Part shown: one piece after another, positions 44,691 through 58,344 of the stretch | Layout: every line of letters starts with the position of its first letter | Numbering within the stretch: the stretch's first letter is position 1 | DNA from: an uncultured Actinomycetes bacterium | GTDB lineage: Bacteria; Actinomycetota; Thermoleophilia; RBG-16-64-13 | DNA length: 64,000 nucleotides | NCBI GenBank assembly: GCA_963775295.1 | Contig: CAVZIK010000006.1 | Coordinates: 1,813,038 to 1,877,037, forward strand | Direction: 5' to 3' | Position numbers and translations under genes: made by a program | The notes under the pieces: generated by a model | What the model saw: the letters and a program-made list of their open reading frames with translations, nothing else | Database searches by the model: none | Told to the model about the DNA's origin: nothing

Positions 44691-45359
44691 CTAAACCCTA
44701 TGCTCCTCCCGCACCACCTTACGCGCCCCGGCATGCCAGGAACAGCTCCAGTCCTTGGCCGGGAGGATCTCGTCGAGCCGGTCCAGCTGGCCGATATTCT
44801 CAAGGCGCTTATAGATCAACTGCCAGGCACAGGGACGATCCGGGTCCACTTCGCAGTGATCTTCGGTCGAGCCGCCGCAGGGGCCGTTCAGTAGGCGCTT
44901 GGCGCAGCGGGTCACCGGGCAGATGCCGCCGAACTGGGCCAGCATGCAGTCGCCGCAGCCCAGGCATTTCTCGGTCCAGACGGCCTGCTCCTCCAGGGTC
45001 CCCATGAATTGGGTATTCAGTCCGGCGTAGACCGGTTTGTTGGGGAACCTCTCGGCGATGGCTTGCACGCCCACGCCGCAGCCGAACGACACGATTGCGT
45101 CGACGTCGGCCGCCTCTTCCGCCAGGTCCTTGATGAACTCGTTCTCGCATTGGCGTTCGATGGTGACCTGGGTCAGCTCCAGGGATTCGCCCTCGAGCTT
45201 GCGGGCCATGCGGATGGCGTAGGAAGCAATGCCCACCTCGCGCTCGCCGCCGGCCAGGCAGACGGTGACACAGGTGCCGCAGCCCACAAAAAGGACCTTC
45301 TTGTGGCCTGTAATGAGGCTCTTCAGCTCGGTGATCGATTTAGGGGAAGCGACAATCAT
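44691..45359 (-). CDS. metV: Methylene-THF reductase Fe-S/Zn partner subunit MetV
   Basis: GCGTCVTVC..GGERE, QCE.EF, GCGVGVQ, CLGCGDC, CPVTRCAKRLLNGPCGG...CE...CAW. Confidence 0.9.
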   Translation of the reverse strand: MIVASPKSITELKSLITGHKKVLFVGCGTCVTVCLAGGEREVGIASYAIRMARKLEGESLELTQVTIERQCENEFIKDLAEEAADVDAIVSFGCGVGVQAIAERFPNKPVYAGLNTQFMGTLEEQAVWTEKCLGCGDCMLAQFGGICPVTRCAKRLLNGPCGGSTEDHCEVDPDRPCAWQLIYKRLENIGQLDRLDEILPAKDWSCSWHAGARKVVREEHRV

Positions 45360-45361
45360 TG

Positions 45362-45826
45362 CTATCCTTCACTTTCCAATTGCTGGGACTCATCGGAGCC
45401 CGCCGCCCTGAGCGGGCTCGGTCCCAGGGCCCTGACCGTCTCCACCATCTCCTGCACGGATTTCACGAACGTGGGGGCTTCTGCGGCGGACAGATTCACC
45501 ATCTTGAGCCGATCTTCGCCCACGCCGATCTCGGCCAGCATCTCGCGGATGCGGTTCGTGCGCTTGCGCGCGCGCAGGTTGCCTTCCAGGAAGTGACAGC
45601 CGCCTTCCAGGCAGCCCGCCACCAAAATCCCGTCGATACCCTTTGTGAAGGCATCGAGGATGTGCTCCATCTCGATCTTGCCCGTGCACGGCGCATGGAT
45701 CACGCGCACGTTGACCGGGTATTGCATGCGTTTCGATCCCGCCAGATCGGCTGCGGCGTACGCGCAATAGTTGCACGCGAAGACGATGATCTCCGGCTCC
45801 CAGCCGTTTCCGTTGGAGGCCGTCAT
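45362..45826 (-). CDS. mvhD: MvhD/FlpD [2Fe-2S] subunit
   Basis: FACNYCAYAAADLAG, PCTGK, GCLEGGCHFLEGN. Confidence 0.93.
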   Translation of the reverse strand: MTASNGNGWEPEIIVFACNYCAYAAADLAGSKRMQYPVNVRVIHAPCTGKIEMEHILDAFTKGIDGILVAGCLEGGCHFLEGNLRARKRTNRIREMLAEIGVGEDRLKMVNLSAAEAPTFVKSVQEMVETVRALGPSPLRAAGSDESQQLESEG

Positions 45827-48800
45827 GCTTTCACTCCGTCCACGAGCAGTTCGTCCAGCATGGCGACCAGCGCGTCGTCTTCCTGATGCTGCAGGGTGAT
45901 CGCCCTGGCCGGGCACGACGCGGCGCAACTGCCGCAGCCCATGCACATGGCGCCCTGTATCTCCGCCTTACCGAGCACGTTGATCATGGGAGCGCCGTAG
46001 GGACAGACCTTGACGCAGGTGGCACACGCCACGCAGTTCTCCGGATCGACCTTGGCTACCTGTCCCGGGATCTCCAGATGCGTCTTGGAGAGGACGGTCG
46101 TGGCGCGGCCCACCGTGGCCTGAGCCTGGGCGATGGTCTCGTCCATGAACCTGGGGGAGTGAGCGAGGCCGCACAGGAACTCACCCTCGTTGGCTAGATC
46201 GACCGGGCGGAGCTTGGGATGCGCCTCCAAGAAGAATCCGTCGGCGGTGAGGGCGCTGCGCAGTTGTCCGGAGAGCACCGGGTTTCCCTCGGCCGGAGCG
46301 ATGCCGGTGGAGAGCACCAGCAGGTCGGGGCGCAAGACCAGGTCGCGATTATTCGACGCGTCGTTCACCGTCACTTTGAGCCGCCCGCCGTCTTCGACCA
46401 CGATGGGGTCGTTCTTCTCGGGATAGCGCACGAACAGCACGCCTTCTTCTCTGGCTTTTTGGAAGAATGTCTCGCGGAATCCGTAGGTGCGGATGTCCCG
46501 CCCCAGGACCGCCACGTTGGCGTCGGGTAGACGGCGCTTGATCTCGAGGGCGTTCTTGACCGCCTCCGAGCAGCACACCCGGCTGCAGTACTGGTGTTCG
46601 TCGTTGCGGCTCTCCACGCACTGGATCATCACCACTGTGGGATTCTGCTTGCCCTGCAGTTCCGCCGGTAGAGCGCCGTCCAGCAGAGCCGCCTCCAGCT
46701 TGCTCTGGGTGGTCACGTGCGGGTTCTTGCCGTGCAGGTACAACTCGGTTTGCCGTTCCCGGCCGCCGGTCGCGACGATGATCACTCCGTGGCTGATGGG
46801 CACTTCCGTGCCGGCCGCGTTGAGGACGCTCTTGAAGTCGCCCACATGTCCACTGAGGCTCGCCGCCGTGGTGTTGAGATAGACCGTGATGCCGGGATGG
46901 GCCTGGACCTTCTCCACCAGTTCGCGGAGATAGGATTCGACGTCGGCTCCTTCGAGCGTGCCGTGGACCTCGCGCAGCAGGCCGCCCAGGGCCGGTTGCT
47001 TCTCCACCAGGTGGACGGCGAAGCCTTGGTCGGCGATGCCCAGAGCCGCGGTCATGCCGGCCAGCCCGCCGCCGAGGACGAGCGCCGAGGCCGTTACCGG
47101 AAGTTGCCCGGTCTGCAGGGCCTTGAGATGCCGGGCCCGTCCCACGGCCATGCGGGTGAGGTCGACGGCTTTGTCGGTCGCCCCCACGGGGTCGTCCTTG
47201 TGCACCCAGGAACCCTGATCGCGGATGTTGGCCATCGTGAATAGATACTGGTTGAGACCGCTCTCGCGCAGCGTCTCCTGGAAGAGGGGCTCGTGCGTGC
47301 GCGGCGAGCAGGAGGAGACCACCAACCTATTGAGGTGATGCTTCGCGATCATGTCCTTGATGTGCTGCTGGTTGGTATCCGAGCAGGTGTAGATGCTGGT
47401 CTCGGCATGGGCGACGTTGGGCATGGTGGAGGCCTGCTGGGCCACCCGTTCCACGTCGATGACCGAGGCGATGTTCTGGCCGCAATGGCAGATAAAGACG
47501 CCCACCCGCGGCTCTTCGTCGGTGATGTCGCGTTCCCAGGGGTACTCGTGCCGTTGGATGAGGTTGCCCCGAACCTGGGCCAGTTGGTCCATGGCGCACG
47601 CCGCCGCCGCAGATGCTTGAGCCACCGACTCGGGGATGTCCTTGGGTTCCTGGAAGGCGCCCGCCACGTAGAGACCGGGCTTCGAGGTCGCAAGCGGGGC
47701 CAGTCGGTCGGTCTGGGCGAAGCCGAACTCGTTGAGGTCCACTCCCAGCCTGGCCGCGGTTTCGCGGACGCTGTTGGGGACCTGGATGCCCACGCTCAGT
47801 ACCACCAGGTCGAATTCCTTCTCCTGCTCGGTCCCGTCCGGGTCGAAGTAGCGGACCCGCGGGTTCTTCGTGCCGGGCATCTCGACCACGCGCGAGGGAA
47901 TGGCCCGGATGTATTTGACGCCATGCTCGTCGCGGGCGCGGTTGACGTAGCTGTCGAACTCCTTGCCGAAGGCTCGGACGTCCATGCAGAAGATGGAGAC
48001 GTCGAGGTCTCTCCCGTGCGCATGCTCCATGGCGACCATGGCTTCCTTGGTGGCGCTCATGCAGCAGATGGAAGAGCAGTATCCCTTGCCTCGGGCGGTG
48101 TCGCGGCTGCCCACGCATTGGATGAAGGCGATCCGTTCCACTTCCCCGCCGTCCGAAGGCCGCTCCACGTGTCCGCCGGTGGGACCCGCGGCCGAAAGCA
48201 TGCGCTCGAACTGGACGCTGGACAGCACATTGGAGTAGCGGCCGTGGCCGAACTCGCCCCGTCCCGCACCCTGGAACTCTTCGAAGCCGGGGGTGACGAT
48301 CACGCTGCCCGCATCGATCTCGATCTCCGTGGGCTGCATGTCGTGTTGCACCGCGCCGACGGTGCAGACCTTCACGCACTGCATGCATTCGCTGCACATA
48401 CCGCAGGCCAGGCAGCGCTTGGCTTCGGCGACGGCCTGTTCCTCGGTGAAGCCTTCACTCACTTCGCCCCAGTTGTGGCGGCGCTCGCCTCCCGGATGTT
48501 CGGTCATGTGCAGGCGCGGCGCCCGGGCGATTCTGGCCAGTTCGGTTTCGTCGGGGCGGGCGTCGGGCATCAGCTCGCCCCCGAAGGCGACCAGCTGCTT
48601 GCCGCGCAGATAGTTGTGGATGTTGGCCGCGGCCTTGCGGCCGGCGGCTATGGCTTCGATCGCCGTGAGCGGACCTTGCGGGGCCGCGTCGCCGCCGGCG
48701 AATACGCCGGGGCGGCCGGTGGCCATAGTGGTGTCGGTAATCTTGATGGCGTTGCCCTCGATCTCGACGCCTTCCAGCGAGGTTCCCTCGGTGCCTCTGG

Positions 48801-50355
48801 CGAAGTCGTCCACCAGTGCCTGCCCGATGGCGAAGATCACCGTATCGCACGGGATCTCGAAGAAGTCGCCGGGGATGGGCTCCGGACGGCGGCGGCCTTT
48901 CTCGTCGGGTTCGCCCAGCTTGTTCCGCTGGAACTTGACCCCGCTCACCTTGCCGCCACTGCCGATGATCTCCACCGGCGCGGCCAGGAATTCCACTTTC
49001 ACCTGTTCGGCGAGGCCTCCCTCGATCTCGTCGGGCGTAGCCGGCATCTCCTCGCGCGTGCGGCGATAGGCGACGGTGACCTCGGGGGACTTCCCGTTGA
49101 CGGACTTGAGACGCGAAGCGGCGCCCGCGGTATCGAAGGCCACGTCGCCGCCACCGATGACGACCACGCGATCGCCCACCGGCAGGGGCCGACCCAGGTT
49201 GACCGCCTGCAGGAACTCGACCGCCTTAATGCAGCCGTCGAGATCGTCGCCCTTGGCAGGAGCCGGGGCGCTGGCGTGCAGGCCTGGGGCTAAGAAGACG
49301 GCACGGTAGCCCTCTTCGAGCAGTCCGTCGACGGTGAAGTCGGTCCCGCAGCGCTGGTTGACCCGCAGGTCGACGCCGAGGGCGCAGATGTTGTCGATCT
49401 CGCCCTGAAGGACGTCCTGGGGCATGCGGTAGTCGGGAATGCCCACCCGCAACATGCCGCCGGCGACCGGAAGGGCTTCGAAGATGGTGGTTGCGTAGCC
49501 GTACTGGGCCAGGTCGCGGGCGCAGCTGAGGCCGGCCGGACCGCCGCCTATGATCGCCACCTTGTCTTCGTAGACGAGCGGCAGCTTCGCCGGCTGGTCG
49601 TCGGGGGTGCCGTGATCGGAGACGTAGCGCTTCAGACTGGCGATTGAGATGGGCTCGTCCACCGAGCCCCTCGTGCAGGCGGTCTCGCAGGGATGCGGGC
49701 ACACCCGGCCGCAGGCGGCAGGCAGCGGGCAGTCCTCGCGGACCAACTCGTAGGCTTCCTTGAACTTGGAGGCGGCGATGAGGGCCACGTAGCCCTGGGC
49801 GTTGACGCCCGCTGGGCATGAGGACTTGCAGGGAGCGCGCCCTTCACGCTTGGATATCCCAAAGACGTTGGGGATGGCCTGCGGATAGGGGCGGAAGATC
49901 GCCTTGCGGGTGCCGAGATTGCGGTCGAACTCGTTGGGCAGGTCGACCGGGCAGGCGTCGACGCAGTCGCCGCAGGCGTTGCACTTCTCCAGATCCACGT
50001 AGCGCGGGGCCTGCAGGAGCTTCACCTTGAAATTGCCCGGCTCTCCGGAAATGCCCTGGACGTCGGCCATGGTGATGATCTCGACGTTCTTGTTACGGGC
50101 TACCTCCACCAGCTTGGGGGAGAGGATGCACATGGCGCAGTCGCCGGTGGGGAAGGTCTTGTCCAGCTGCGACATCCTTCCGCCGATGGCCGGGGAGGAG
50201 TCCACCAGGTAGACCTTGAAACCGCTCTCGGCCAGGTCCAGTGAGGCCTGGATGCCGGTGATGCCCGCGCCACAGACCATGACGGCGCCAACCGGCTCGG
50301 TGGCGGTCGCCCCGCTGCCGGCGCCGTTCCCGTTGCTTTTGATGATCTCGCTCAT
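45823..50355 (-). CDS. hdrA: Large HdrA-like flavoprotein (HdrL type): two HdrA FAD modules plus an embedded GltD/NfnA-like NAD(P)H module and ferredoxin domains
   Basis: GAGITG, LDKTFPTGDCAMC, QCVGSRD, YCSSICCMSATK, PKDIPES; insert CKSSCPAG..CGRVCPHPCE.AC.R, GGGPAG, GGGDVA, YRR; second module FICHCG, CSPRTHE, GGGLAG, YCSRVCCSEAVK; C-terminal 2x CxxCxxCxxxCP. Confidence 0.93.
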   Translation of the reverse strand: MSEIIKSNGNGAGSGATATEPVGAVMVCGAGITGIQASLDLAESGFKVYLVDSSPAIGGRMSQLDKTFPTGDCAMCILSPKLVEVARNKNVEIITMADVQGISGEPGNFKVKLLQAPRYVDLEKCNACGDCVDACPVDLPNEFDRNLGTRKAIFRPYPQAIPNVFGISKREGRAPCKSSCPAGVNAQGYVALIAASKFKEAYELVREDCPLPAACGRVCPHPCETACTRGSVDEPISIASLKRYVSDHGTPDDQPAKLPLVYEDKVAIIGGGPAGLSCARDLAQYGYATTIFEALPVAGGMLRVGIPDYRMPQDVLQGEIDNICALGVDLRVNQRCGTDFTVDGLLEEGYRAVFLAPGLHASAPAPAKGDDLDGCIKAVEFLQAVNLGRPLPVGDRVVVIGGGDVAFDTAGAASRLKSVNGKSPEVTVAYRRTREEMPATPDEIEGGLAEQVKVEFLAAPVEIIGSGGKVSGVKFQRNKLGEPDEKGRRRPEPIPGDFFEIPCDTVIFAIGQALVDDFARGTEGTSLEGVEIEGNAIKITDTTMATGRPGVFAGGDAAPQGPLTAIEAIAAGRKAAANIHNYLRGKQLVAFGGELMPDARPDETELARIARAPRLHMTEHPGGERRHNWGEVSEGFTEEQAVAEAKRCLACGMCSECMQCVKVCTVGAVQHDMQPTEIEIDAGSVIVTPGFEEFQGAGRGEFGHGRYSNVLSSVQFERMLSAAGPTGGHVERPSDGGEVERIAFIQCVGSRDTARGKGYCSSICCMSATKEAMVAMEHAHGRDLDVSIFCMDVRAFGKEFDSYVNRARDEHGVKYIRAIPSRVVEMPGTKNPRVRYFDPDGTEQEKEFDLVVLSVGIQVPNSVRETAARLGVDLNEFGFAQTDRLAPLATSKPGLYVAGAFQEPKDIPESVAQASAAAACAMDQLAQVRGNLIQRHEYPWERDITDEEPRVGVFICHCGQNIASVIDVERVAQQASTMPNVAHAETSIYTCSDTNQQHIKDMIAKHHLNRLVVSSCSPRTHEPLFQETLRESGLNQYLFTMANIRDQGSWVHKDDPVGATDKAVDLTRMAVGRARHLKALQTGQLPVTASALVLGGGLAGMTAALGIADQGFAVHLVEKQPALGGLLREVHGTLEGADVESYLRELVEKVQAHPGITVYLNTTAASLSGHVGDFKSVLNAAGTEVPISHGVIIVATGGRERQTELYLHGKNPHVTTQSKLEAALLDGALPAELQGKQNPTVVMIQCVESRNDEHQYCSRVCCSEAVKNALEIKRRLPDANVAVLGRDIRTYGFRETFFQKAREEGVLFVRYPEKNDPIVVEDGGRLKVTVNDASNNRDLVLRPDLLVLSTGIAPAEGNPVLSGQLRSALTADGFFLEAHPKLRPVDLANEGEFLCGLAHSPRFMDETIAQAQATVGRATTVLSKTHLEIPGQVAKVDPENCVACATCVKVCPYGAPMINVLGKAEIQGAMCMGCGSCAASCPARAITLQHQEDDALVAMLDELLVDGVKA

Positions 50356-51245
50356 GATCGCGCTCCAACCGGCTGAGCCGGCTTACCGCCGAGCCCTTTG
50401 GATTCCAGCAGCTTCCGCGGATCCACTATGAGGCTGTCGAGCGACACCTCGCTCGCCGAGCAGCCCATGGCCAGACCCAGCAGTTGCGTGAAGTAGAAGA
50501 TGGGCATGTCGTAACGCCGCCCGTACTTCGCCGCGACGTCCTTCTGCCTCATGTCCAGATTGAGCTGGCAGAGCGGGCAGGCGGTGGCGATGCAGTCCAC
50601 GCCCGACGCCTGCGCCATGGCAAGGATCCTGTCGGTGAGTTCCACCACGATGCTCGAATCGGCGATGGAGAAGCTCGCTCCGCAGCACTCGGTCTTGTGC
50701 GGCCAGTCGACGACGGTGGCTCCCGCGGTCTCGAGGAGGCGATCCATCAGCGTGGGATTCTCGGGGTCGTCGAATTGGGTGACTTCCGGCGGACGGGTCA
50801 GCAGACAGCCGTAGTAGCAGGCCACTTTCAGGCCGGTGAGCGGGCGGCGGATGGCAGCGGCGATCTCGTTCTGCATGTCCTGGCCCATAATCTCCAGCAT
50901 GTGTCGCACGGGCGTGTTGCCGTCGTAGTCGCCGCCGACCACTTGAGCCACCCTGGTCCGCACCTCGGCGTCGCCGGCGATGTGATGATTGGCCATCTTC
51001 AAGCGGCTGTAGCAGGCCGCGCAGGAGACCGCGACCGTGGTGCCGTTCGCCGCGCGCAGGTTCTGCGCCGGCAGGGCGTCTGCAAGCAGCGGGTCGCTGC
51101 TGTGGGCCGCGGTGGAACCGCAGCAAATCCAGTCCTTTATCTCGGGGAGTTCCAGTTCCAGCTTGGATGCGACTGCCAGGGTGGAACGATGGAAGTCTTT
51201 GGCCGTGCCCTCGAGCGAACAACCTGGGTAGAAGACGTAGTTCAA
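50352..51245 (-). CDS. hdrB: Heterodisulfide reductase subunit B
   Basis: YPGCSLEG, WICCGS, CAACY, YYGCLL.RP, ECCGAS, CPLCQLNLD: two complete CCG domains. Confidence 0.93.
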   Translation of the reverse strand: MNYVFYPGCSLEGTAKDFHRSTLAVASKLELELPEIKDWICCGSTAAHSSDPLLADALPAQNLRAANGTTVAVSCAACYSRLKMANHHIAGDAEVRTRVAQVVGGDYDGNTPVRHMLEIMGQDMQNEIAAAIRRPLTGLKVACYYGCLLTRPPEVTQFDDPENPTLMDRLLETAGATVVDWPHKTECCGASFSIADSSIVVELTDRILAMAQASGVDCIATACPLCQLNLDMRQKDVAAKYGRRYDMPIFYFTQLLGLAMGCSASEVSLDSLIVDPRKLLESKGLGGKPAQPVGARS

Positions 51246-51808
51246 GGCTTACCTCCCTGGGCCGCCCGGCGGAACAGCTTCTCGCGCTCGCTTCGCCCGC
51301 GCATCCGCGTCCCGAACAGGGGCAGCTTGCCCTTTCTCAACATCGTGGGGGCTTTGTCGAAGTCCTCGAAGAACCGCTTCGTACGAAGCTTGAAGCTCGC
51401 CATGAGGCTGAGCTCGTGCACGCGACCGCGTTTGCGGACGCTGTTCAGGAAGATCTCCGTAAAAGCGGGTACGGCCGAGCCCGCAGCCATCTTCCTCTCG
51501 GCGAGACTCAGGGCTCGCAGAGCGTCGTTCATGGCGGCGATGTCCACTTTCTGCGGGCAGCGAGTAATGCAAGTCTGACACGACGTGCATTCCCAGATGA
51601 GGCGGCTGCGCAGCGCGGCTTCGCGTTGGTTGGTCTGAACGAGCCGCACGAGTTCGTGCGGCCTGATATCCGTGCGGCCGGCCACGGGGCAGCCGCTGGA
51701 GCACTTGGTGCATTGGAGGCAGCTCATGGGGGATACGCCGCTGGAGCTCTTCACCTGGTTGGCCAGGTTGCCGCCGATCTCTTGGATCTCTATCGTCAGG
51801 GGGGTCAC
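51242..51808 (-). CDS. hdrC: Heterodisulfide reductase subunit C
   Basis: CLQCTKCSSGCP, WECTSCQTCITRCP, GRVHE; GTG after GAAGGAG. Confidence 0.9.
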   Translation of the reverse strand: MTPLTIEIQEIGGNLANQVKSSSGVSPMSCLQCTKCSSGCPVAGRTDIRPHELVRLVQTNQREAALRSRLIWECTSCQTCITRCPQKVDIAAMNDALRALSLAERKMAAGSAVPAFTEIFLNSVRKRGRVHELSLMASFKLRTKRFFEDFDKAPTMLRKGKLPLFGTRMRGRSEREKLFRRAAQGGKP

Positions 51809-54408
51809 TTCTTCTCCTTCGAGCCGGCGAGCACCGTCAGCTTGACCGCTGTCACCTTGCGGTAGACGTCTTGCGGGTTGCGGAGTTGGCCGTCCACCGT
51901 GAGCAGGTCCTCGACTCGGATGCCGAAGAGCCGCTCGTTCTCCTCCAGGTAGCCGCGGATCAACCGCCAATCCTTCTCGTCGATGGAGGAGACCACGCCT
52001 CCGTTCAGTTGGCGATCGACCACCTGATCGTGAGGATCGCGGATGTAGATGGCGCCGCCGCTGGCCAGCGAGAACAGGTTGCTGCCCGGATATGGCGACG
52101 CCTGAGGAACGATCTGGCCGCAACCGTCGAACTCGATGCCGTTGAGGATGACGAATCCGCCTCCCGCCAGGGGATCTCCGGCCATGAAGGACTCAGCCAG
52201 GAAGTCCAGGCAGGTGCCGTTGATGACCACTCGCGGCCGTCCCACGGCGTTGATGAGCGGGCGGCCCGCTCCGTTACCGAGGACGAAGACGTCGCCGCCT
52301 TTGGCGCCGTACATGAAGGTCTGGCCCACGTCGCCGTAGATGACCAGCTTGCCGCGCTTGGCGATCTGGGCCAGCTGATCTTGCGCGTTGCCGTGGATAT
52401 AGAGCTCGAGGCCGTCCATGCCGCTCGCGGTGTAGTCGCCGTTGGAACCGTACAGGTCGATGCGGACGCCGTCGGTCCCTGCTCCCAGACCTGCTCCATG
52501 GAAACGTTGCCCGCGCAGGCGATAAACGATGAACCGCTTCCAACCCAAGCGGTATCCGGCGCGGAGCAGGACTGCGTCGCAGTCGTCGCCCTCCGGCGGG
52601 AACCCCTCGGCGTCGATGCAGAGCACGTCTTCGCCGGTTTGCGGCGCCGCCAGGCTGTCGCGCGTGTCCCAGGTGATCCTTCGCCAATAACCGGTGGCAG
52701 GCTCTCCGAAGAGCGGAGCTTGGTCGAACAGGTCGTCGAGGGTCTCCTCGAGCACCTGGACGACAGTGGCGCGGCGTTTGTCCCCCGTGGGGAAGCGGCG
52801 GTCGTGAAGTTTCGTGAGCAATTCGACGGCGGCGGCGCGGGACTTGGAGTTGTCCGTTCCTCCGAGCACCGCCCGGCAGAACTGGCGCAGCCGGTCGGCC
52901 GGCCACGAAGGCATGTCGCGTACGACCTCCGCGAAGAGGCCTTCCACGTCGCCTTGGCGCAGCTTCTCGGCAAGACCCTCGATGGGGCTCGCCTGATCGA
53001 CGTCGGCACACGGTAGGTCACAGCGCACCGTGCCCACCTCGTTCTTGACCTCGCGGCCGAACTTGTCGGCGCATGAAAGTCGCATCTTGCCGCTGTCGCC
53101 GTTGCTGCCGGGCGCCACCGTGAAGATGAAGGCGCCGCCATCGGTGGAGGAGCCGCCGCGGGCGTTCCAGTACTTGTCGGCCACCGGGCAGAAGCGCGGG
53201 TCTTCCTCGGCCAGGCTGCGCAACGTGGCGTCGATGGCCTGCTTCTCCGAGCATATGAGCCCGATCTGAACGTCTCCGCTGTCGGAAAGCGCGAAGACCT
53301 GCGGGCGGAGCATGGCGGTGTCGGTGATGCCCATGAGCTGGAACCTGTCTCCCTGGCTCCGGGCGATGATGAAGAACCACGGACCGTCCGGCGACGCGTG
53401 GATATGGGTCGCCTGGATCTGCCGGTAGATGGCTTGCTTCTCGGAAGGCAAGTTGTCGAAGTCGAGTTCGGTGGTGGGAGCCAGCGCCTCGATGATGTAC
53501 TCCAGCGGATACTGGTAGACACGGTCCCACAGATCGAAGAGTTGGACCGAGACCTCCGTGTCGGTGAGGAACTGTTGCCGGATGTTGCGTTGGCGCAGGT
53601 ACTCGCAGACCGAATGGTAGTTGGCGAAGTCGCCATTGTGCACCAGCGCCTCGTTCACTCCCACAAAGGGGTGGGCTCCACCTGGGTGCCAGACGCGGCC
53701 CTTGGTCGGGTAGCGCTGGTGGGCGATCCACACATGCGCCTTGAAGTCTTGGAGCTTGTAGTACTCCACGTTCTGCTCGGCGTATCCCACCATCTTGAAG
53801 ACGAGCAGGTTCCGGGAGTGGGAGAGTACGAATGCGCGTTTCTCGCCCAGCGAGGCGTAGTACGTATCGTTGAGCCGATAGGTGTTGCGGAACATGAACT
53901 CGTCTTCGAGCGCGCGTGGGGCCAGGTCCTGCAGCCCCGCGGATTCGGCAAAAGCCCTCAACGCGGCCGGCTTAGCGCGCACCACATAGCGGTGCACGTC
54001 GGGCGGGCGCACTTCCAGGCCGATGTCGCGATAGTCTTCGATGTGCTCCTGCCTAGTGGACAGGGCCACGTCGAAGTTGGGGAGGATGAACTCACGCTCA
54101 AGTTCAGCGTGACAGTCGTCGTCGAGCAAGGCTATCTGCAGCAGGTTGTGGCTTTCGAGTAACTCCGAGGAGATGCCCAGTTGCTCGGGGACGAGGCCCG
54201 CCGCTGCGATGCCGCCCCCCTTGCCGTTGCCACGGTTCTGCATCTGCTTGGAAGGCTCGTAGATGAACTTTCCCTTCACCGGAACGGTGCAGGCAAAGCC
54301 GGTGACGCCGCAGCCGCCTTCTTCCACCCGCTCGGCTCCGATGGGCTCTTCCGGACGGGTGTAGACCTGTGACCTGCTGGCCAGTAGACGTTCGGCATAA
54401 TCGCTCAT
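51805..54408 (-). CDS. gltB: Glutamate synthase-like subunit: class II glutamine amidotransferase domain fused to GXGXG (GltB3/FwdC-like) domain
   Basis: EEGG|CGV Ntn cysteine site, NRGNGKGGG, HQRYPT, HNGDF, TDTE; C-terminal GNAQDQ, GDVGQTFMYGAKGG, LAESFMAG, SLASGGAIY. Confidence 0.88.
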   Translation of the reverse strand: MSDYAERLLASRSQVYTRPEEPIGAERVEEGGCGVTGFACTVPVKGKFIYEPSKQMQNRGNGKGGGIAAAGLVPEQLGISSELLESHNLLQIALLDDDCHAELEREFILPNFDVALSTRQEHIEDYRDIGLEVRPPDVHRYVVRAKPAALRAFAESAGLQDLAPRALEDEFMFRNTYRLNDTYYASLGEKRAFVLSHSRNLLVFKMVGYAEQNVEYYKLQDFKAHVWIAHQRYPTKGRVWHPGGAHPFVGVNEALVHNGDFANYHSVCEYLRQRNIRQQFLTDTEVSVQLFDLWDRVYQYPLEYIIEALAPTTELDFDNLPSEKQAIYRQIQATHIHASPDGPWFFIIARSQGDRFQLMGITDTAMLRPQVFALSDSGDVQIGLICSEKQAIDATLRSLAEEDPRFCPVADKYWNARGGSSTDGGAFIFTVAPGSNGDSGKMRLSCADKFGREVKNEVGTVRCDLPCADVDQASPIEGLAEKLRQGDVEGLFAEVVRDMPSWPADRLRQFCRAVLGGTDNSKSRAAAVELLTKLHDRRFPTGDKRRATVVQVLEETLDDLFDQAPLFGEPATGYWRRITWDTRDSLAAPQTGEDVLCIDAEGFPPEGDDCDAVLLRAGYRLGWKRFIVYRLRGQRFHGAGLGAGTDGVRIDLYGSNGDYTASGMDGLELYIHGNAQDQLAQIAKRGKLVIYGDVGQTFMYGAKGGDVFVLGNGAGRPLINAVGRPRVVINGTCLDFLAESFMAGDPLAGGGFVILNGIEFDGCGQIVPQASPYPGSNLFSLASGGAIYIRDPHDQVVDRQLNGGVVSSIDEKDWRLIRGYLEENERLFGIRVEDLLTVDGQLRNPQDVYRKVTAVKLTVLAGSKEKK

Positions 54409-56039
54409 CGAGACACCTGCCCCGCCGCCGCCGGCTCGTCGTCGGAGAGCGGCTCGTCGCTGATGTAGCACAGCACGTCGCTGCGCCCGCGAAGTTCACG
54501 GATGGACTTCATTCCCAGGCGCGACAGCACGGCGATCATTTGTTCTTGCCAGGCGTTGTTGAGGTTGATAAGCCGCTGAGTGGACCACTCCAGGCTCATC
54601 TGCGTCATGAGGTCGGGGTCGGTGGTGGCGATACCGCGCGGGCAACCCCGGCCGCTCTCGCAGCAGGCGCAACGCACGCAACCCAGCGCAACCAACTCGA
54701 CAGTCCCCACCACCACGCCGTCCGCGCCGAGAGCGATGGCCTTCAAGGCATCGTAGGCCGTGCGGATGCCGCCCGAGGCGATCAGCGTGATCTGGTCGCG
54801 TATGCCTTCGGCCACGAGAAACTTGTGTACTTTGGGAATCGCGAACTCGATGGGCATGGCGATGTTCTTCTTGGCGATGTCGGGGGCCGCGCCGGTGCCG
54901 CCGTAGCTGCCGTCCAGGTGGATGATGTGCGCCCCGGCGTAGTAGCTGCCCACGGCGACCATATCGACATCGGTGGGGGTCGACACCTTCACGCTCACCA
55001 GACAGTCGGGATTGACTTCCTTTATCCAATCGAGGTGCTTCTTGTGGTCCTCCACGCTGTAGACGCTGTGGAAGGGAAACGGGCTGAACAGCGCGTTGCC
55101 GGCCACGGCCTCACGCATGCGGGCGACTGGAGGAGTATTTTTGTCGCCCAGGAGGTGCCCGCCCAAGCCGGGCTTGGCGCCCTGCGCGTACTTGAACTCC
55201 ACGATGCGCACGCGCTGGATGGTCTCGTCGCGCACCCCGAAGAGGCCCGTGGCCACCTGGGTGATGACGTGGTTGTCGTAAGGCCTGAGGCGGTCGTGAT
55301 ACCCGCCCTCGCCGGTGCAGGTGAAGCTGTTCCAGGCGGCGGCGGCGCGGGCCTTACCCAGGATGGCGTGGATACTCACGCTTCCGAAGCTCATTCCCCC
55401 GCCGTAGACGGGAATATCCAGGTGCACCTGCGGACGGCCGTCGCTGCGTTGGTTCAGGTCCAGACTCATGTCGATGTCTTCAGCGGGAACCGGTTCGACG
55501 GCGCTCGTCTCGTTCTCGAACCCCTGGACCTCGAACTTGAAGCGCATCTTGTCGAACCCGCCTCCCGAGAGGCCGGTGCGAGATTCGAGATGCGGCGGGG
55601 CGGCATGGCCGGTGGCGGCCTGATGCCAGGTGGAGATGATCAGGTCACCGGGCCAGCGCGGATCGCCCATACAATCGGCGGCGGGGTTGCGCCGCACCGA
55701 AAGCGCGTTCTGCGGGCATTGGGCAATGCAGGACTCGCGCGAATTGGCGCATTCGGGGCCGATGCAGAGGTGATCCTTCGGCCGCAGGGTGAAGGCGTAG
55801 CCCTCGGGCTTGACGTGCACCCCGTATTGGCAGACTTCGACGCACCGGCCGCAGGATATGCAGCTGGCGAGACGGTCGACCTTGTATTTGCCCACGGCGT
55901 TACGGTAGCGGTCGGGAGCGGGGCGGACCTCGCGGTCCACCTTCTCACCAGGCCACTCGCTCTGGCCGAGATGTGTGACCGGCGCTCGCGCCGGTTCGCC
56001 CTGGACTTCGGCAGGAATGGTTTCAAGTTCGATCGTCAT
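54405..56039 (-). CDS. gltB: Glutamate synthase FMN-binding (GltB2-type) subunit with N-terminal ferredoxin domain
   Basis: GGGMSFGS, TGEGG, QVATGLFGV, KYAQGAKPGLGGHLLGDK, VSVKV, DGSYGGTGAAP, SGGIR, GCVRCACCESGRGCPRGIATTDP. Confidence 0.9.
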   Translation of the reverse strand: MTIELETIPAEVQGEPARAPVTHLGQSEWPGEKVDREVRPAPDRYRNAVGKYKVDRLASCISCGRCVEVCQYGVHVKPEGYAFTLRPKDHLCIGPECANSRESCIAQCPQNALSVRRNPAADCMGDPRWPGDLIISTWHQAATGHAAPPHLESRTGLSGGGFDKMRFKFEVQGFENETSAVEPVPAEDIDMSLDLNQRSDGRPQVHLDIPVYGGGMSFGSVSIHAILGKARAAAAWNSFTCTGEGGYHDRLRPYDNHVITQVATGLFGVRDETIQRVRIVEFKYAQGAKPGLGGHLLGDKNTPPVARMREAVAGNALFSPFPFHSVYSVEDHKKHLDWIKEVNPDCLVSVKVSTPTDVDMVAVGSYYAGAHIIHLDGSYGGTGAAPDIAKKNIAMPIEFAIPKVHKFLVAEGIRDQITLIASGGIRTAYDALKAIALGADGVVVGTVELVALGCVRCACCESGRGCPRGIATTDPDLMTQMSLEWSTQRLINLNNAWQEQMIAVLSRLGMKSIRELRGRSDVLCYISDEPLSDDEPAAAGQVSR

Positions 56040-57460
56040 GTGCACACCTGACCCTGAGGCACGCGGGCAAGATCGCCGAATGCCTCTTTCTCGATGTCTT
56101 CCATAAAAATGGCGCGTCCTACTTCGCCGCGCAGGCGGCGGACTTCTCGGATACCCATTGCCCCCAACACCTCGATGAGTTGCCCATGCCACGCACCCAT
56201 GAGGTTGACCATGCGCTGGGAGGCATAATCGGTGTCGACCGAGGCGATATGGGCCGGACAGGCCCTGGCAGCGTCGCACTCACCGCCGCCACCGCACACG
56301 CGGCAGCCCAGGGCGACTAGGAGCGGTGTGCCCACGGCTATGAGGTCGGCACCGCAGATGATCGACTTGGCCATGTGCTCCGCCAGAGCGATCCCGCCGG
56401 CGATAATGAGGGTCACCTCGTCTCGCAGACCTTCCTTGACCAGTCGCCCGTGAGTCTCCCGGAGAGCGTCCTTGATGTGCCGCCCGGGCTTCCCGTTGGC
56501 CAAGCGCTCGCGGCCGTGCGTGTCGGCACACAGGTGGAACACCTTTACACCCGCCTGCGACAACTCGACGATGCGATCGGCGGTCTTGGGGGTGAGTGCC
56601 AGGCGCACGGAGATCACTAACTGGGGGTTGATGCTTCGAATCCGGGCGATGAGTGGAGCCGCGTCCGGGCCGTCCATTACCTGCACCATGCGTATCGCCT
56701 CGAGGAGGCGCGGGTGCCGCTCGATGTCGCCCACGCCCATGACGGGCACGACGTGGGACAGTTGCTCCGAGGGCAGATCTTCGGTGTCGTCGGCCGGCAT
56801 CACGGCCACGGAGTCGAGGGCCACGGCCGCTTCGGCCCGTGCGGCGGCCAGATGCTCGCTCTTGACGGGCCAAGCCGGCATGTCCAGGATGACGGGAAGT
56901 TGGATCTCCAAGAGACCGGCAGCCGGAGTAATCAGGGCGCCGTCGGGCGAGAAGCTCAAGCGCATGGGCTTGGGGCCTATGTCCACCGAGGTGGATATGT
57001 ACTCGCGCCCGTGGATGCCGTCGCGGGTGGGGCGGACGATCTCGGACATGTCCGTCCAGATGGAATCGAAGCCCGGACCGCTGAAGCGACCCCGATAACC
57101 GGCACCCGAGACGGGAATTCGGCCGTTGTCGGCCTGGTTCCAGGTGGTGAGAAGAATGTCGCCCTTCCAGTAATCGTCGCCCATGTCCGAATAGGTGGGG
57201 TTGACCGAGACGCTCAACAGGCCCTTGGTGCAGCCCTGGACGCACGATAGACACGCCTTGCATTGGTCGAGCGTTTCGGTGGAGGTATGCGGATCGCGGT
57301 TGAACGCTGCCTCGTGCGTGTACACGTCGTAGAGGCAACGCAGCTTGACGCAGTTGGTGCAGCGAGAACAGTCCTCACGCCAGTCGACGTTACCGAACTT
57401 GCCCACGCGATGGAATCGGGGAGCCACCGGAGCGGTGTGGATGTGGTAGCGGTCGGGCAT
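56036..57460 (-). CDS. Degenerate paralog of the glutamate synthase FMN subunit with N-terminal 2x[4Fe-4S]-type domain
   Basis: CSRCTNCV..C / CKACLSCVQGC; GFDSIWTDMSEIVRP; AGGI..KSIICGAD..GCRVC; MGIREVRRLRGEVG; lacks GMSFGS, TGEGG and QGAKPG. Confidence 0.82.
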   Translation of the reverse strand: MPDRYHIHTAPVAPRFHRVGKFGNVDWREDCSRCTNCVKLRCLYDVYTHEAAFNRDPHTSTETLDQCKACLSCVQGCTKGLLSVSVNPTYSDMGDDYWKGDILLTTWNQADNGRIPVSGAGYRGRFSGPGFDSIWTDMSEIVRPTRDGIHGREYISTSVDIGPKPMRLSFSPDGALITPAAGLLEIQLPVILDMPAWPVKSEHLAAARAEAAVALDSVAVMPADDTEDLPSEQLSHVVPVMGVGDIERHPRLLEAIRMVQVMDGPDAAPLIARIRSINPQLVISVRLALTPKTADRIVELSQAGVKVFHLCADTHGRERLANGKPGRHIKDALRETHGRLVKEGLRDEVTLIIAGGIALAEHMAKSIICGADLIAVGTPLLVALGCRVCGGGGECDAARACPAHIASVDTDYASQRMVNLMGAWHGQLIEVLGAMGIREVRRLRGEVGRAIFMEDIEKEAFGDLARVPQGQVCT

Positions 57461-57471
57461 GCCGATCCGCC

Positions 57472-58344
57472 TTACGCCAGTTGGGCGGCGGAAATGACCT
57501 CGCCGGCCAGCGCTTCGAACCCACCGCAGAGGATGTGAATGCCACGTACGCCCGGAATCGCCTTGATCTGCGCAGCTAGAGCGGCCGCCATGGCGAGACC
57601 CTCCTTGGCCGCGTCGGAGGCCTCGCTCAATTTGGTGACCACCGACTCATCCAGCGGGCCGTAGGTCTGCTGCTTGTGCAGGGACCGGGCTTGCTCTGCG
57701 CTCTGAAGGGGAAGCACGCTCGCGATAATGGAGGTTCGTCCGTCCAAACCGGCCGCCCGAACTGCATCCATCCACCCGGCAAAACCGGCCACGTCGAAAA
57801 CAGGCTGGGTGAGGAGGAAGTCCGCACCGGAGGCGATCTTCTTCCTGAGACGGAGCAGGTTCAACTCCAGCGGCTGCAGGTAAGGATGGGCTATCGCTCC
57901 GACGACCATGTCGGGAAGCTCCAGGCTCTTCACGGCCTGAGTGAGTTGCAGGGAGTCGAGATCGTTCGCCGAGGCCGCCTGCGGGCAGGCGCCGAGAGAT
58001 TGATGGTTGCCGCTCAGGCAGAGAATGGCGCTGACCCCGAGGGCAGACGCTCCCAGGGCATCACTTTCGAGGGCGATGCGGTTGCGGTCCCGGGTGGTCA
58101 TGGTGACCACAGAGTCGCGGCCTTCGCGGGCCAGGAGAGCCGCACACGCCAATGCCGAACCATGGATTTCGTCAGGGTTGTCCGCCACCACCACCGCATC
58201 GAGGCCGGAAGCCAGTACGTTGGAAAGCTTCTTGACCGCTTCCACGCCGCCCGTGCGCGGCGGCAGGCATTCGGCCGTAAGCACCAGCCGGCCCGAACTC
58301 AGTGCCTGAGCGAACCTACTCTTCGTTGTCGTCATCGCTTGCAT
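57472..58344 (-). CDS. metF: Methylenetetrahydrofolate reductase-family flavoprotein (divergent MetF)
   Basis: TAECLPP, DNP, TTRDRNRIALESDALGA..LG..ILCLSG, KKIASGADFLLTQPVFD, GIHI; start may be 58335. Confidence 0.85.
   Translation of the reverse strand: MQAMTTTKSRFAQALSSGRLVLTAECLPPRTGGVEAVKKLSNVLASGLDAVVVADNPDEIHGSALACAALLAREGRDSVVTMTTRDRNRIALESDALGASALGVSAILCLSGNHQSLGACPQAASANDLDSLQLTQAVKSLELPDMVVGAIAHPYLQPLELNLLRLRKKIASGADFLLTQPVFDVAGFAGWMDAVRAAGLDGRTSIIASVLPLQSAEQARSLHKQQTYGPLDESVVTKLSEASDAAKEGLAMAAALAAQIKAIPGVRGIHILCGGFEALAGEVISAAQLA

What the first reader, a model, noticed from the sequence alone, without database searches (positions are those of the whole stretch)
45823..50355. HdrA carries an embedded GltD-like module next to GltB genes that have no gltD
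Seen: roughly aa 175-650 of the 1510-aa HdrA is a complete GltD/NfnA/SudA-like unit (CxxxCP..CGRVCPHPCE..C, GGGPAG, GGGDVA, YRR). It is flanked by two HdrA FAD modules, each retaining CxxxCCxxxxK; that Lys corresponds to the one next to the bifurcating FAD in methanogen HdrA. No separate gltD occurs in the window. Known: HdrL-type proteins with NAD(P)H modules occur in sulfate reducers. Inference: this HdrA may serve as the glutamate synthase beta subunit, giving a potentially bifurcating, three-flavin electron input.
Basis: partly seen in the sequence, partly recalled or inferred. Interest (0 to 1): 0.68.

Follow-up and report, generated by a model that had tools for sequence, protein, structure and literature searches.

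The report
Moorella-type giant HdrA beside glutamate synthase
The 1510-residue protein is a known kind of giant NAD(P)H-oxidising HdrA, first described in the methylene-folate reductase of the acetogen Moorella, but here it sits in a ten-gene operon with an unusual three-piece glutamate synthase, which it probably supplies with electrons.

Summary
Residues 173-660 of the 1510-aa HdrA are a complete Fe-S/FAD/NAD(P)H module. It is inserted in the ferredoxin domain of a first HdrA flavin module and followed by a second HdrA. Both HdrA modules keep the Glu/Lys pair used as a bifurcation signature. This architecture is already published for Moorella thermoacetica HdrA, HdrL and "type III" HdrA. The insert is closer to NfnB/StnC-type modules than to GltD.

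The context appears undescribed in the papers searched. The operon is mvhD'-metF'-gA-gB-gC-hdrC-hdrB-hdrL-mvhD-metV, with six consecutive 4-nt start/stop overlaps.

- The glutamate-synthase-like trio always travels with MvhD'/MetF'/MetV', often without HdrL.
- It is the only glutamate synthase homologue in several anaerobes.
- More distant HdrL relatives sit in Moorella-type clusters without the trio.
- The HdrL of merged operons forms one clade across five phyla.
- In that clade the MetF' catalytic residues decay, while the glutaminase and FMN-site motifs stay invariant.
- This genome has no canonical gltD, but it has a separate archaeal-type GOGAT next to glnA and a separate MetVF in its C1 cluster.

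Best reading: HdrL acts as the NAD(P)H input, GltD-like in function but not in ancestry. Bifurcation is untested.

The parts
58316..58924 (-). mvhD' (first MvhD/FlpD-like [2Fe-2S] protein, first gene of the operon; start codon uncertain)
   Evidence: Pfam FlpD 82.2 bits. An MvhD-like gene at 26-40% identity precedes metF'/metV' in nearly all related loci that have upstream flank.
57472..58344 (-). metF' (divergent MTHFR-fold flavoprotein)
   Evidence: Pfam MTHFR only 75 bits, against 227 and 138 bits for the genome's two other MetF genes. The position of E. coli Asp120 is Asn (LSGN); the Glu28 and Gln183 equivalents are kept.
56036..57460 (-). gA: 2x[4Fe-4S]-type N-terminus plus degenerate glutamate-synthase FMN-domain paralogue
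   Evidence: Pfam Glu_synthase 60 bits, covering only profile positions 183-368. Cys motifs are visible in the translation. ATGA overlap with gB.
54405..56039 (-). gB: ferredoxin-like N-terminus plus catalytic glutamate-synthase FMN domain
   Evidence: Pfam Glu_synthase 298.6 bits. Aligns over residues 215-527 with the Azospirillum GltB FMN domain 857-1172, and the Fe-S cluster Cys are kept. The motif KYAQGAKPGLGGHL is invariant in 67 homologues.
51805..54408 (-). gC: class-II (Ntn) glutamine amidotransferase fused to a GXGXG beta-helix domain, 867 aa
   Evidence: Pfam GATase_6 and GXGXG. The Cys1, Arg, Asn-Gly and Asp equivalents of PurF are present and near-invariant across 81 homologues. 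At least 588 relatives in species-representative genomes.
51242..51808 (-). hdrC (GTG start overlapping the gC stop as GTGA)
   Evidence: NCBIfam CoB_CoM_SS_C 58.6 bits, Pfam Fer4_8. Junction sequence.
50352..51245 (-). hdrB (two CCG domains)
   Evidence: Pfam CCG 80.2 bits with 2 stretches; TIGR03288 181.9 bits. TTGA and ATGA overlaps at its two ends.
45823..50355 (-). hdrL: Moorella-type giant HdrA, 1510 aa
   Evidence: Orthologues of 1470-1530 aa with the same architecture.
49840..50355 (-). HdrL aa 1-172: FAD-binding start of HdrA/TrxR-like module 1 (GAGITG 29-34) and first half of the inserted ferredoxin domain (CNACGDCVDACP 125-136)
   Evidence: This segment is 79-87% identical to the nearer orthologues (L012-L021, L025, L040, L042, L045).
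48376..49839 (-). HdrL aa 173-660: NfnB/GltD-type cassette (2x[4Fe-4S], FAD, NAD(P)H; AYRR = NADPH-type motif)
   Evidence: It is only 46-49% identical to the cassette of orthologues whose flanks are 79-88% identical, so the cassette was replaced.
47509..48375 (-). HdrL aa 661-949: second half of the inserted ferredoxin domain and the rest of TrxR-like module 1 (E717, K770)
   Evidence: Aligns to HdrA residues 301-565 (9sfi_A, 5odc_A). E717 falls on E356 and K770 on K409.
45823..47508 (-). HdrL aa 950-1510: second HdrA (N-terminal 4-Cys domain, TrxR-like module 2 with E1221/K1267, C-terminal 2x[4Fe-4S]); inserted ferredoxin domain absent
   Evidence: Aligns to HdrA 8rvv_A at 2-229 and 313-640, skipping residues 230-312.
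45362..45826 (-). mvhD (second MvhD; ATGA overlap with the hdrL stop)
   Evidence: Pfam FlpD 162 bits. Junction.
44691..45359 (-). metV' (last gene of the operon)
   Evidence: Pfam DUF5981/MTHFR_C 127.9 bits. Groups with the merged-operon MetV clade at 100/95 support.
2..1276 (+). C-terminal part (Fer4_17 + CCG) of a 777-aa protein whose truncated GltD-like head lies just upstream of the window; not a canonical gltD

Best explanation
**Identity (shown).** The gene encodes a Moorella-type giant HdrA ('HdrL'). A first HdrA/thioredoxin-reductase-like FAD module has its inserted ferredoxin domain split by an NfnB/GltD-type cassette (two [4Fe-4S], FAD, NAD(P)H site). It is fused to a second complete HdrA that lacks the inserted ferredoxin domain.

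**Context (shown).** The gene lies in one translationally coupled ten-gene operon: mvhD'-metF'-gA-gB-gC-hdrC-hdrB-hdrL-mvhD-metV'. The core MvhD'/MetF'/MetV'/gA/gB/gC is a widespread split glutamate synthase with intact glutaminase and FMN sites. The hdrCB-hdrL-mvhD block joined it once, in a clade now spread over five phyla.

**Function (inferred).**
- In this merged clade HdrL is the pyridine-nucleotide entry point. Here that is probably NADPH, from the AYRR motif.
- Electrons would pass from the cassette FAD through its Fe-S clusters and the HdrA flavins.
- They would then pass through MvhD, MetV'/MetF' and the ferredoxin-like domains of gA/gB to the FMN of gB.
- There 2-iminoglutarate, made with ammonia from the gC glutaminase, would be reduced to glutamate.

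HdrL thus does the job of a GltD beta subunit without being one by descent. The cassette was already part of HdrL before the merger. Whether the two HdrA flavins also bifurcate to a low-potential acceptor is open.
For: **Architecture.**. It matches the description of M. thermoacetica HdrA: 1487 aa, GltD domain interrupting an extra TrxR-like domain, 3 FAD, E/K in both modules, NADH:benzyl viologen activity (PMC9430772).

**Operon unity.** Six consecutive 4-nt overlaps run from gA to mvhD, including GTGA at gC|hdrC.

**Conservation.** About 30 loci show the same gene order. Merged-operon HdrL is one side of a 100% SH-aLRT branch: 27 rows from 5 phyla against 14 Moorella-type rows. Merged-operon MetV is one clade at 100/95.

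**Only one MetF and one MetV.** The merged operon has a single pair, whereas loci that merely juxtapose the two systems (L056, L081) keep two pairs.

**Catalytic sites.**
- The gC glutaminase residues and the gB motifs KYAQGAKPGLGGHL, SPFPFHSVYS(V/I)ED and DG(S/G)YGGTGAAP are invariant or nearly so in both clades.
- The MetF' equivalents of E. coli E28/D120/Q183 are strictly kept in non-merged loci.
- They vary in the merged clade: D120 to N, A, H, L, Y or R; E28 to A or G; Q183 to D, S or H.

**MTHFR and GOGAT duties are covered elsewhere in this genome.**
- fdhA-fhs-fchA-folD-metV-metF cluster
- a canonical metF
- an archaeal-type GOGAT next to glnA

**The trio is a real glutamate synthase.** It is the only PF01645 homologue in five genomes, one of them a complete chromosome. 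In Desulfobacterales it is followed by carA-carB-purF.
Against: - There is no biochemical or structural evidence that HdrL contacts the MetF'V'/gABC proteins.
- In the one purified relative (Moorella) the HdrA complex serves methylene-THF reduction, not glutamate synthesis.
- In this genome MetF' keeps the Glu28 and Gln183 equivalents and has a conservative Asp-to-Asn change. It may still turn over a folate, so NAD(P)H to methylene-THF remains possible.
- Bryobacterales members of the merged clade keep all three MetF residues.
- The trio works without HdrL in many genomes. One acidobacterial lineage lost hdrCB and then hdrL, so HdrL is accessory.
- Merged-clade genomes also carry a canonical 1520-1580-aa GltB, so the role of a second glutamate synthase is unclear.
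- The role of HdrBC is unexplained.
- No expression data could be found.
Confidence: 0.5

Rival explanations
1. Two enzymes share one transcript. The first is a Moorella-type NAD(P)H-dependent methylene-THF reductase (HdrCB-HdrL-MvhD-MetV-MetF'). The second is an independent ferredoxin- or MetF-linked split glutamate synthase (MvhD'-gA-gB-gC). They are co-regulated but do not exchange electrons.
For: Each system exists alone elsewhere. There are 12 Moorella-type clusters without the trio and many trio operons without HdrL. Juxtaposed but complete sets occur in L056 and L081. The window's MetF' keeps two of its three catalytic residues. Moorella HdrA is documented in an MTHFR context (PMC9430772).
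Against: - The merged operon has only one MetF and one MetV for both systems.
- MetF' catalytic residues are lost in several merged lineages, for example A/A/D in Myxococcota, while the operon stays intact.
- Translational coupling runs across the gC|hdrC boundary.
- The genome already has MetVF inside its fhs-folD cluster.
- Gene order has been kept since a single merger, across five phyla.
Confidence: 0.25
2. One reading: an electron-bifurcating glutamate synthase. NAD(P)H is oxidised at HdrL. One electron path runs downhill to the Gln/2-oxoglutarate reaction. The other is pushed uphill to ferredoxin or another low-potential acceptor by one of the three flavins.
For: Both HdrA modules keep the E/K pair aligned with HdrA E356/K409. 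The cassette is most similar to the NADPH-binding modules of the NfnI, Stn and NfnABC-type enzymes; that these enzymes bifurcate is from general knowledge. By my own estimate from textbook free energies (not computed here), the glutamate synthase reaction is strongly exergonic with NAD(P)H, so it could serve as the high-potential branch. The HdrBC and second MvhD components have no assigned role.
Against: The usual ferredoxin-docking inserted domain is absent from module 2 and is occupied by the cassette in module 1 (see PMC12054007). No ferredoxin reduction was found for the Moorella enzyme (PMC9430772, PMC5736913). No ferredoxin or other low-potential partner is encoded in the operon. The E/K signature is also present in enzymes not shown to bifurcate.
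Confidence: 0.15
3. The supercomplex links one-carbon and nitrogen metabolism directly. Methyl-THF is oxidised at MetF', or methylene-THF is reduced there, and the glutamate synthase site is the electron partner. HdrL adds or removes the balance of electrons as NAD(P)H (confurcation or redox balancing).
For: MetF' catalytic residues are strictly conserved in the non-merged trio operons, where no pyridine-nucleotide module is encoded. There MetF' is the only other substrate site. From general knowledge, methyl-THF/methylene-THF lies near -200 mV, which is compatible with donation to the glutamate synthase FMN.
Against: In the merged clade, to which this window belongs, the MetF' triad is relaxed. 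Acetogen MetFV enzymes are known only as reductases, with ferredoxin or viologens as donors (PMC9430772). Nothing here shows folate binding.
Confidence: 0.1

Closest known systems
HdrA of the Moorella thermoacetica HdrCBA-MvhD-MetVF complex (Hdr-type / 'type IV' methylene-THF reductase; Mock et al. 2014 as summarised in PMC9430772)
   Same: Length (1487 vs 1510 aa). Extra N-terminal TrxR-like module interrupted by a GltD-type Fe-S/FAD/NAD(P)H domain. Second HdrA without the inserted ferredoxin domain. Three FAD sites. E/K pair in both modules. Co-encoded hdrC, hdrB, mvhD, metV and metF.
   Different: - Here three glutamate-synthase-like genes and a second mvhD lie between metF and hdrC.
- MetF is a divergent paralogue with Asp120 replaced by Asn.
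- The cassette carries a YRR (NADPH-type) motif, whereas the Moorella enzyme uses NADH.
- HdrL of merged operons forms a clade separate from Moorella-type cluster HdrL.
[quoted passage not shown]
   Same: Large HdrA with an NAD(P)H-binding GltD-like region, followed by mvhD.
   Different: HdrL1-3 sit next to dsr, fdh or other genes and often contain selenocysteine. The window protein has no in-frame stop and sits with MetFV and the glutamate synthase genes.
Type III HdrA / ANME-1 HdrA-NfnB fusions (PMC12054007, PMC9012536)
   Same: A GltD/NfnB module of about 500 aa inserted in the inserted ferredoxin domain of HdrA. It is proposed to replace ferredoxin docking by NAD(P)H input.
   Different: The archaeal proteins have a single HdrA module and work in CoM-S-S-CoB contexts. 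Here there is a tandem HdrA in a bacterial MetFV/glutamate synthase operon.
NfnB-type large subunits and the NfnB-like modules of Stn / NfnABC enzymes (PDB 5jca_L, 4ylf_B/4yry, 8oh5_C, 9n5u_A, 9bov_A)
   Same: Best sequence matches of the cassette (286-402 bits), with two [4Fe-4S], FAD, a GGGxxA fold and the YRRTREEMPA motif.
   Different: The cassette is embedded in HdrA rather than paired with NfnA/NuoEF-type partners. No [2Fe-2S]/FAD NfnA-like small subunit is present.
GltD, beta subunit of bacterial NADPH-glutamate synthase (PDB 6s6s_G, 2vdc_G)
   Same: Same fold family and cofactor set. It may have the same role, NAD(P)H to Fe-S to the FMN subunit of a glutamate synthase.
   Different: - Much weaker similarity (137-163 bits).
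- Below every NCBIfam GltD cut-off.
- Not a free subunit.
- The partner is a split enzyme with its own ferredoxin-like domains and no central domain.
- The linkage arose secondarily.
Archaeal-type split glutamate synthase (separate GATase, Fer4-FMN and GXGXG proteins), present in this genome next to glnA
   Same: Split domains, ferredoxin-like N-terminus on the FMN subunit, no GltD.
   Different: In the operon the GATase and GXGXG domains are fused (gC). A degenerate FMN paralogue (gA) is added. MvhD'/MetF'/MetV' always accompany the enzyme.

Membership tests
Moorella-type giant HdrA (Hdr-type MTHFR HdrA) | Tandem HdrA/TrxR-like FAD modules in one polypeptide | tested here: met
   The NCBIfam HdrA2 model restarts at aa 950. 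Both halves align to solved HdrA.
Moorella-type giant HdrA (Hdr-type MTHFR HdrA) | GltD/NfnB-type Fe-S/FAD/NAD(P)H domain interrupting the first module | tested here: met
   aa 173-660, flanked by the two halves of a ferredoxin domain.
Moorella-type giant HdrA (Hdr-type MTHFR HdrA) | Second module lacks the inserted ferredoxin domain; E/K pair in both modules | tested here: met
   The alignment skips HdrA residues 230-312. E717/K770 and E1221/K1267 align to E356/K409.
Moorella-type giant HdrA (Hdr-type MTHFR HdrA) | Encoded with hdrC, hdrB, mvhD, metV and metF | tested here: met
   However, metF is divergent and is separated from the rest by three glutamate-synthase-like genes.
Moorella-type giant HdrA (Hdr-type MTHFR HdrA) | NADH:viologen and methylene-THF reductase activity of the complex | not testable with these tools
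   Needs enzyme assays.
Glutamate synthase beta subunit (GltD) | N-terminal 2x[4Fe-4S] domain plus FAD and NADPH Rossmann domains | tested here: met
   Fer4_20, Pyr_redox_2, GGGPAG, GGGDVA, AYRR.
Glutamate synthase beta subunit (GltD) | Scores as GltD by curated models, and GltD is the nearest solved relative | tested here: not met
   TIGR01317 189 bits vs cut-off 447.7; TIGR01318 254 vs 483; PRK12814 385 vs 916. PDB GltD chains score 137-163 bits against 286-402 for Nfn/Stn-type chains.
Glutamate synthase beta subunit (GltD) | Free subunit of about 50 kDa encoded next to a full-length GltB | tested here: not met
   The module is embedded in a 1510-aa HdrA. The neighbouring enzyme is split into gA, gB and gC.
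Glutamate synthase beta subunit (GltD) | Transfers NAD(P)H electrons to the glutamate synthase FMN subunit | not testable with these tools
   Supported only indirectly by operon coupling and the pattern of residue conservation.
NfnB-type bifurcating NADPH module | High similarity to NfnB/StnC modules, including the YRR motif | tested here: met
   In the printed alignment to 9bov_A the chain's YRRTREEMPA lines up with the window's AYRRTREEMPA.
NfnB-type bifurcating NADPH module | Partner NfnA-type [2Fe-2S]/FAD subunit, or a NuoEF-type partner | tested here: not met
   None among the operon's ten genes.
Split glutamate synthase (neighbouring gA/gB/gC) | Ntn glutaminase nucleophile and oxyanion residues; FMN/2-oxoglutarate-site motifs; Fe-S cluster Cys | tested here: met

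The most novel reading that the evidence does not exclude
The merged operon encodes an electron-bifurcating glutamate synthase. HdrL oxidises NAD(P)H. The strongly exergonic glutamine-dependent reduction of 2-oxoglutarate serves as the high-potential branch. A low-potential carrier, ferredoxin or flavodoxin, is reduced by the other electron, so that nitrogen assimilation would yield low-potential reductant. A corollary is that a glutamate-synthase-like acceptor might be a lead to the still unknown second acceptor of Moorella-type HdrA complexes.
Probability: 0.15. Interest if true: 0.85.

Novelty: new variant of a known kind. Interest (0 to 1): 0.55.

Why it matters
The giant HdrA itself is known. 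Its physiological partners are not: the Moorella-type complex still has an unidentified second electron acceptor.

This operon places the same HdrA, by one ancient merger that has since spread through five phyla, in a translationally coupled unit with a catalytically intact but undescribed split glutamate synthase. The folate-site residues of the accompanying MetF decay in that clade.

That gives a concrete, testable idea: HdrA-type flavin/Fe-S modules can serve as the reductase of glutamate synthase.

It also shows that the NAD(P)H cassette is exchangeable between a YRR and a CLE form. That is a natural experiment on cofactor specificity.

Tried and rejected
- **Canonical gltD elsewhere in the genome.** Searched with PF14691. 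None was found; all 11 modules are fusions.
- **Donor of the window's NfnB-like cassette among the genome's own paralogues.** The best match is only 43% identical, so no internal donor exists.
- **Origin of the merged-operon MetV.** It could derive from the trio-linked or the Hdr-linked lineage. The MetV tree does not resolve this, so my earlier idea that it is 'V-prime type' was dropped.
- **Acidobacterial operons without the Hdr block as the ancestral state.** Rejected: they nest inside the merged clade and are secondary losses.
- **Sigma-54 promoter upstream of the operon**, suggested by notes on other genomes. No site was found near 58900-59060, and window-wide matches are at chance level.
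- **Sigma-70 and terminator scan.** Nothing above the shuffled expectation.
- **Public sequencing runs for expression evidence.** None were listed.
- **Literature searches for a described gltB-MetFV-Hdr cluster.** None was found in the held library.
- **Structure prediction.** Not run.


Full report
**1. What is at the coordinates**

The minus-strand ORF 45823-50355 encodes a 1510-aa protein.
- Pfam finds Fer4_20 (aa 173-248) and Pyr_redox_2 (aa 265-572). It also finds further FAD-binding hits near aa 25 and aa 1090, and a C-terminal 2x[4Fe-4S] domain.
- NCBIfam HdrA models match in four stretches, and the HdrA2 model restarts at aa 950. Models of the GltD/NfnB family cover aa 172-683. None reaches its curated cut-off.

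Alignment to solved HdrA structures gives three results.
- aa 661-949 correspond to HdrA residues 301-565, with E717 on E356 and K770 on K409.
- aa 950-1510 correspond to a whole HdrA, except that the inserted ferredoxin domain (residues 230-312) is missing. E1221 and K1267 fall on the same two positions.
- The cassette sits between the two halves of the first module's inserted ferredoxin domain, CNACGDCVDACP at 125-136 and CLACGMCSECMQCVKVC at 648-664.

**2. The architecture is already known**

- Kremp et al. 2022 (PMC9430772) describe M. thermoacetica HdrA (1487 aa) of the HdrCBA-MvhD-MetVF methylene-THF reductase. It has an extra TrxR-like domain interrupted by a GltD domain, three FAD sites, no inserted ferredoxin domain in the C-terminal HdrA, and E/K pairs in both modules. 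It has strong NADH:benzyl viologen activity.
- HdrL of D. autotrophicum was called a heterodisulfide reductase/glutamate synthase fusion in 2009 (PMC2702500).
- NfnB or GltD insertions into HdrA are described for ANME-1 and as 'type III HdrA' (PMC9012536; PMC12054007).
- At least 7750 database proteins of similar length match at E <= 1e-50.

The cassette is also not a close GltD relative. Solved Nfn/Stn-type chains score 286-402 bits, and true GltD chains 137-163 bits.

**3. The operon**

Reading the minus strand from 58924 to 44691, the genes are:
- mvhD'
- metF'
- gA (ferredoxin-like N-terminus plus degenerate FMN domain)
- gB (ferredoxin-like N-terminus plus FMN domain)
- gC (GATase-II fused to GXGXG)
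- hdrC
- hdrB
- hdrL
- mvhD
- metV

Six consecutive junctions from gA to mvhD are 4-nt start/stop overlaps. They include GTGA between gC and hdrC.

**4. Is there a gltD, and another glutamate synthase, elsewhere?**

The genome has 11 Fer4_20 modules, all inside large fusion proteins. The partners are NuoF-like, NuoG-like, a selenocysteine formate dehydrogenase, a second HdrA, and three Fer4_20/FAD/Fer4_17/CCG proteins. One of those three ends at window position 1276. There is no canonical stand-alone gltD.

There is a second, better-scoring glutamate synthase at C6:2885178-2888946. It consists of GATase, Fer4-FMN (467 bits) and GXGXG. It is followed directly by glnA and preceded by an HdrD-like protein.

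The genome also has three MetF homologues:
- a canonical one (227 bits);
- one in an fdhA-corrinoid-fhs-fchA-folD-metV-metF-lpd cluster (138 bits);
- the divergent operon copy (75 bits).

Ordinary nitrogen assimilation and the C1 pathway are thus served by other genes.

**5. Comparative genomics from the trio's side**

The gC fusion has at least 588 relatives in species-representative genomes, 58-84% identical over the 80 loci kept, across many phyla. In the 80 loci fetched:
- the constant neighbours are an MvhD-like gene, MetF, MetV, gA and gB;
- about half of the loci continue with hdrC-hdrB-hdrL-mvhD-metV as in the window;
- some Acidobacteriota have hdrL-mvhD but no hdrCB;
- many loci have no HdrL within 10 kb, including Desulfobacterales, Syntrophorhabdaceae, Dehalococcoidia and four Acidobacteria.

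In five of the non-merged genomes, one a complete chromosome, gB and gA are the only PF01645 homologues. Fourteen of the fifteen merged-clade genomes searched also carry a canonical glutamate synthase FMN domain (482-522 bits), twelve of them in an open frame of 1520-1580 aa; the fragmentary MAG G321 (L012) shows none. In Desulfobacterales the trio is followed by carA, carB and purF.

The catalytic residues of gC (Cys1, Arg, Asn-Gly, Asp) and the gB FMN-site motifs are invariant or nearly so in all clades. The trio is therefore a genuine glutamine-dependent glutamate synthase. Its universal partners are MvhD'/MetF'/MetV', not HdrL.

**6. Comparative genomics from HdrL's side**

Genomes whose trio operon lacks HdrL mostly encode full-length HdrL (46-50% identical) elsewhere. 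All 12 such loci fetched are Moorella-type clusters, (hdrCB)-hdrL-mvhD, followed by metV-metF wherever the contig continues, with no trio.

In a tree of full-length HdrL, the merged-operon proteins (27 rows) are separated from the Moorella-type ones (14 rows) by a 100% SH-aLRT branch. The merged rows come from Actinomycetota, Acidobacteriota, Myxococcota, Planctomycetota and Armatimonadota.

The MetV tree gives one merged clade at 100/95. The four Acidobacteria without the Hdr block nest beside Acidobacteriota that kept hdrL-mvhD but lost hdrCB.

The merger therefore happened once and spread by transfer. Only 3 of 301 sampled genomes of the window's own phylum have gC. In one lineage the merger was partly undone.

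**7. What changes after the merger**

- In non-merged operons MetF' strictly keeps the equivalents of E. coli Glu28, Asp120 and Gln183.
- In the merged clade these positions vary by lineage. Asp120 becomes N, A, H, L, Y or R. Glu28 becomes A or G. Gln183 becomes D, S or H.
- The window has E/N/Q.
- Loci that only juxtapose the two systems keep two MetV-MetF pairs. Merged operons keep one.

The glutamate synthase sites are invariant, and the pyridine-nucleotide cassette is the only other substrate site conserved in the merged operons that retain HdrL. The simplest reading is that NAD(P)H oxidised at HdrL became the electron source for the glutamate synthase, and that MetF' was reduced to an electron-transfer or structural role. 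This is inference; no assay or interface model exists.

**8. A mobile cassette**

The window's cassette is 46-49% identical to that of orthologues whose HdrA flanks are 79-88% identical. It is 75-77% identical only to two other Actinomycetota loci, L025 and L040.
- The window type carries AYRR and GRRRPEP, as in NADPH-binding Nfn-type modules.
- The commoner type carries ACLE(S/K)R, an acidic residue typical of NADH sites.
- Both types are scattered through merged and Moorella-type HdrL.
- No donor paralogue exists in this genome.

The assignment of cofactor specificity is inferred from the motifs.

**9. Verdict on the interpretation**

There is no canonical gltD, and one HdrL clade is firmly associated with the trio. 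The idea still needs reframing on four points:
- the GltD-like cassette was part of HdrL before any link to glutamate synthase;
- the trio never has a GltD and works without HdrL in many organisms;
- HdrL is accessory;
- the cassette is Nfn-like.

Bifurcation remains possible because the E/K pairs are kept and the cassette is Nfn-type. Two points count against it. Neither HdrA module offers the usual ferredoxin-docking domain, and no low-potential partner is encoded.

**10. Relation to earlier notes of this scan**

Two notes seen served as leads and were checked here. One calls the trio a glutamate synthase with a dead twin. The other reports MetF folate-site substitutions.

Notes seen, after my analysis, describe the same operon type in other genomes and the Moorella-type HdrA with a YRR motif. 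They agree with this report but are not independent evidence. Their sigma-54 promoter does not apply here.

Noticed in passing
window 48376-49839 (HdrL aa 173-660); loci L012-L105: The NAD(P)H cassette of HdrL is exchangeable. The window, L025 and L040 share a YRR-type cassette that is only 46-49% identical to the CLE-type cassette of orthologues whose HdrA flanks are 79-88% identical. Both motif types are interspersed across merged and Moorella-type HdrL. This suggests repeated swaps between NADPH and NADH forms.
   Followed up: partly
own genome C6:1702454-1714527 (L092): A C1 (Wood-Ljungdahl methyl-branch) cluster. It holds a 1411-aa formate dehydrogenase fused to a 2Fe-2S plus GltD-like NAD(P)H module, with an in-frame TGA in CART*H (likely selenocysteine). 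The other genes are a corrinoid protein, a GntR regulator, fhs, fchA, folD, metV, metF and lpd.
   Followed up: partly
own genome C6:2883820-2890312 (L011): An archaeal-type split glutamate synthase (GATase, Fer4-FMN, GXGXG) lies directly upstream of glnA. It is preceded by an HdrD-like CCG/Fer4_8 protein, which may be its own Hdr-type electron input.
   Followed up: partly
own genome C6:427098-433494 (L110): A second, split version of HdrL: mvhD, an 895-aa HdrA module with an NfnB-like insert, a separate 637-aa second HdrA, and a CCG protein. It follows two-component and ArsR-type regulators and has no MetFV or glutamate synthase genes.
   Followed up: partly
window 2-1276 (+), plus own genome C6:1801456-1803858 and C6:835032-837350: Three paralogous proteins of about 750-785 aa combine a Fer4_20 domain, a single FAD Rossmann domain, Fer4_17 and a CCG domain. 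They are a truncated GltD head fused to an HdrD-like tail. Function unknown.
   Followed up: partly
loci L024, L028, L030, L031, L048, L051 versus L034-L036, L041: Stepwise reduction of the merged operon within Acidobacteriota. One group lost hdrC and hdrB but kept hdrL-mvhD. A nested group lost hdrL-mvhD as well. The genome of L041 keeps a separate Moorella-type cluster (L102).
   Followed up: partly
loci L061, L073 (Desulfobacterales); genomes G304-G308: In these genomes the mvhD'-metV-metF-gA-gB-gC operon is the only glutamate synthase homologue. In Desulfobacterales it is followed by carA, carB and purF. MetF' keeps all folate-site residues there, so the electron donor of this enzyme is an open question.
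   Followed up: partly
genomes G305, G306, G309, G310, G316-G319: Many Moorella-type HdrL genes of Desulfobacterota carry one in-frame TGA. This is consistent with the selenocysteine-containing HdrL reported for D. autotrophicum.
   Followed up: no
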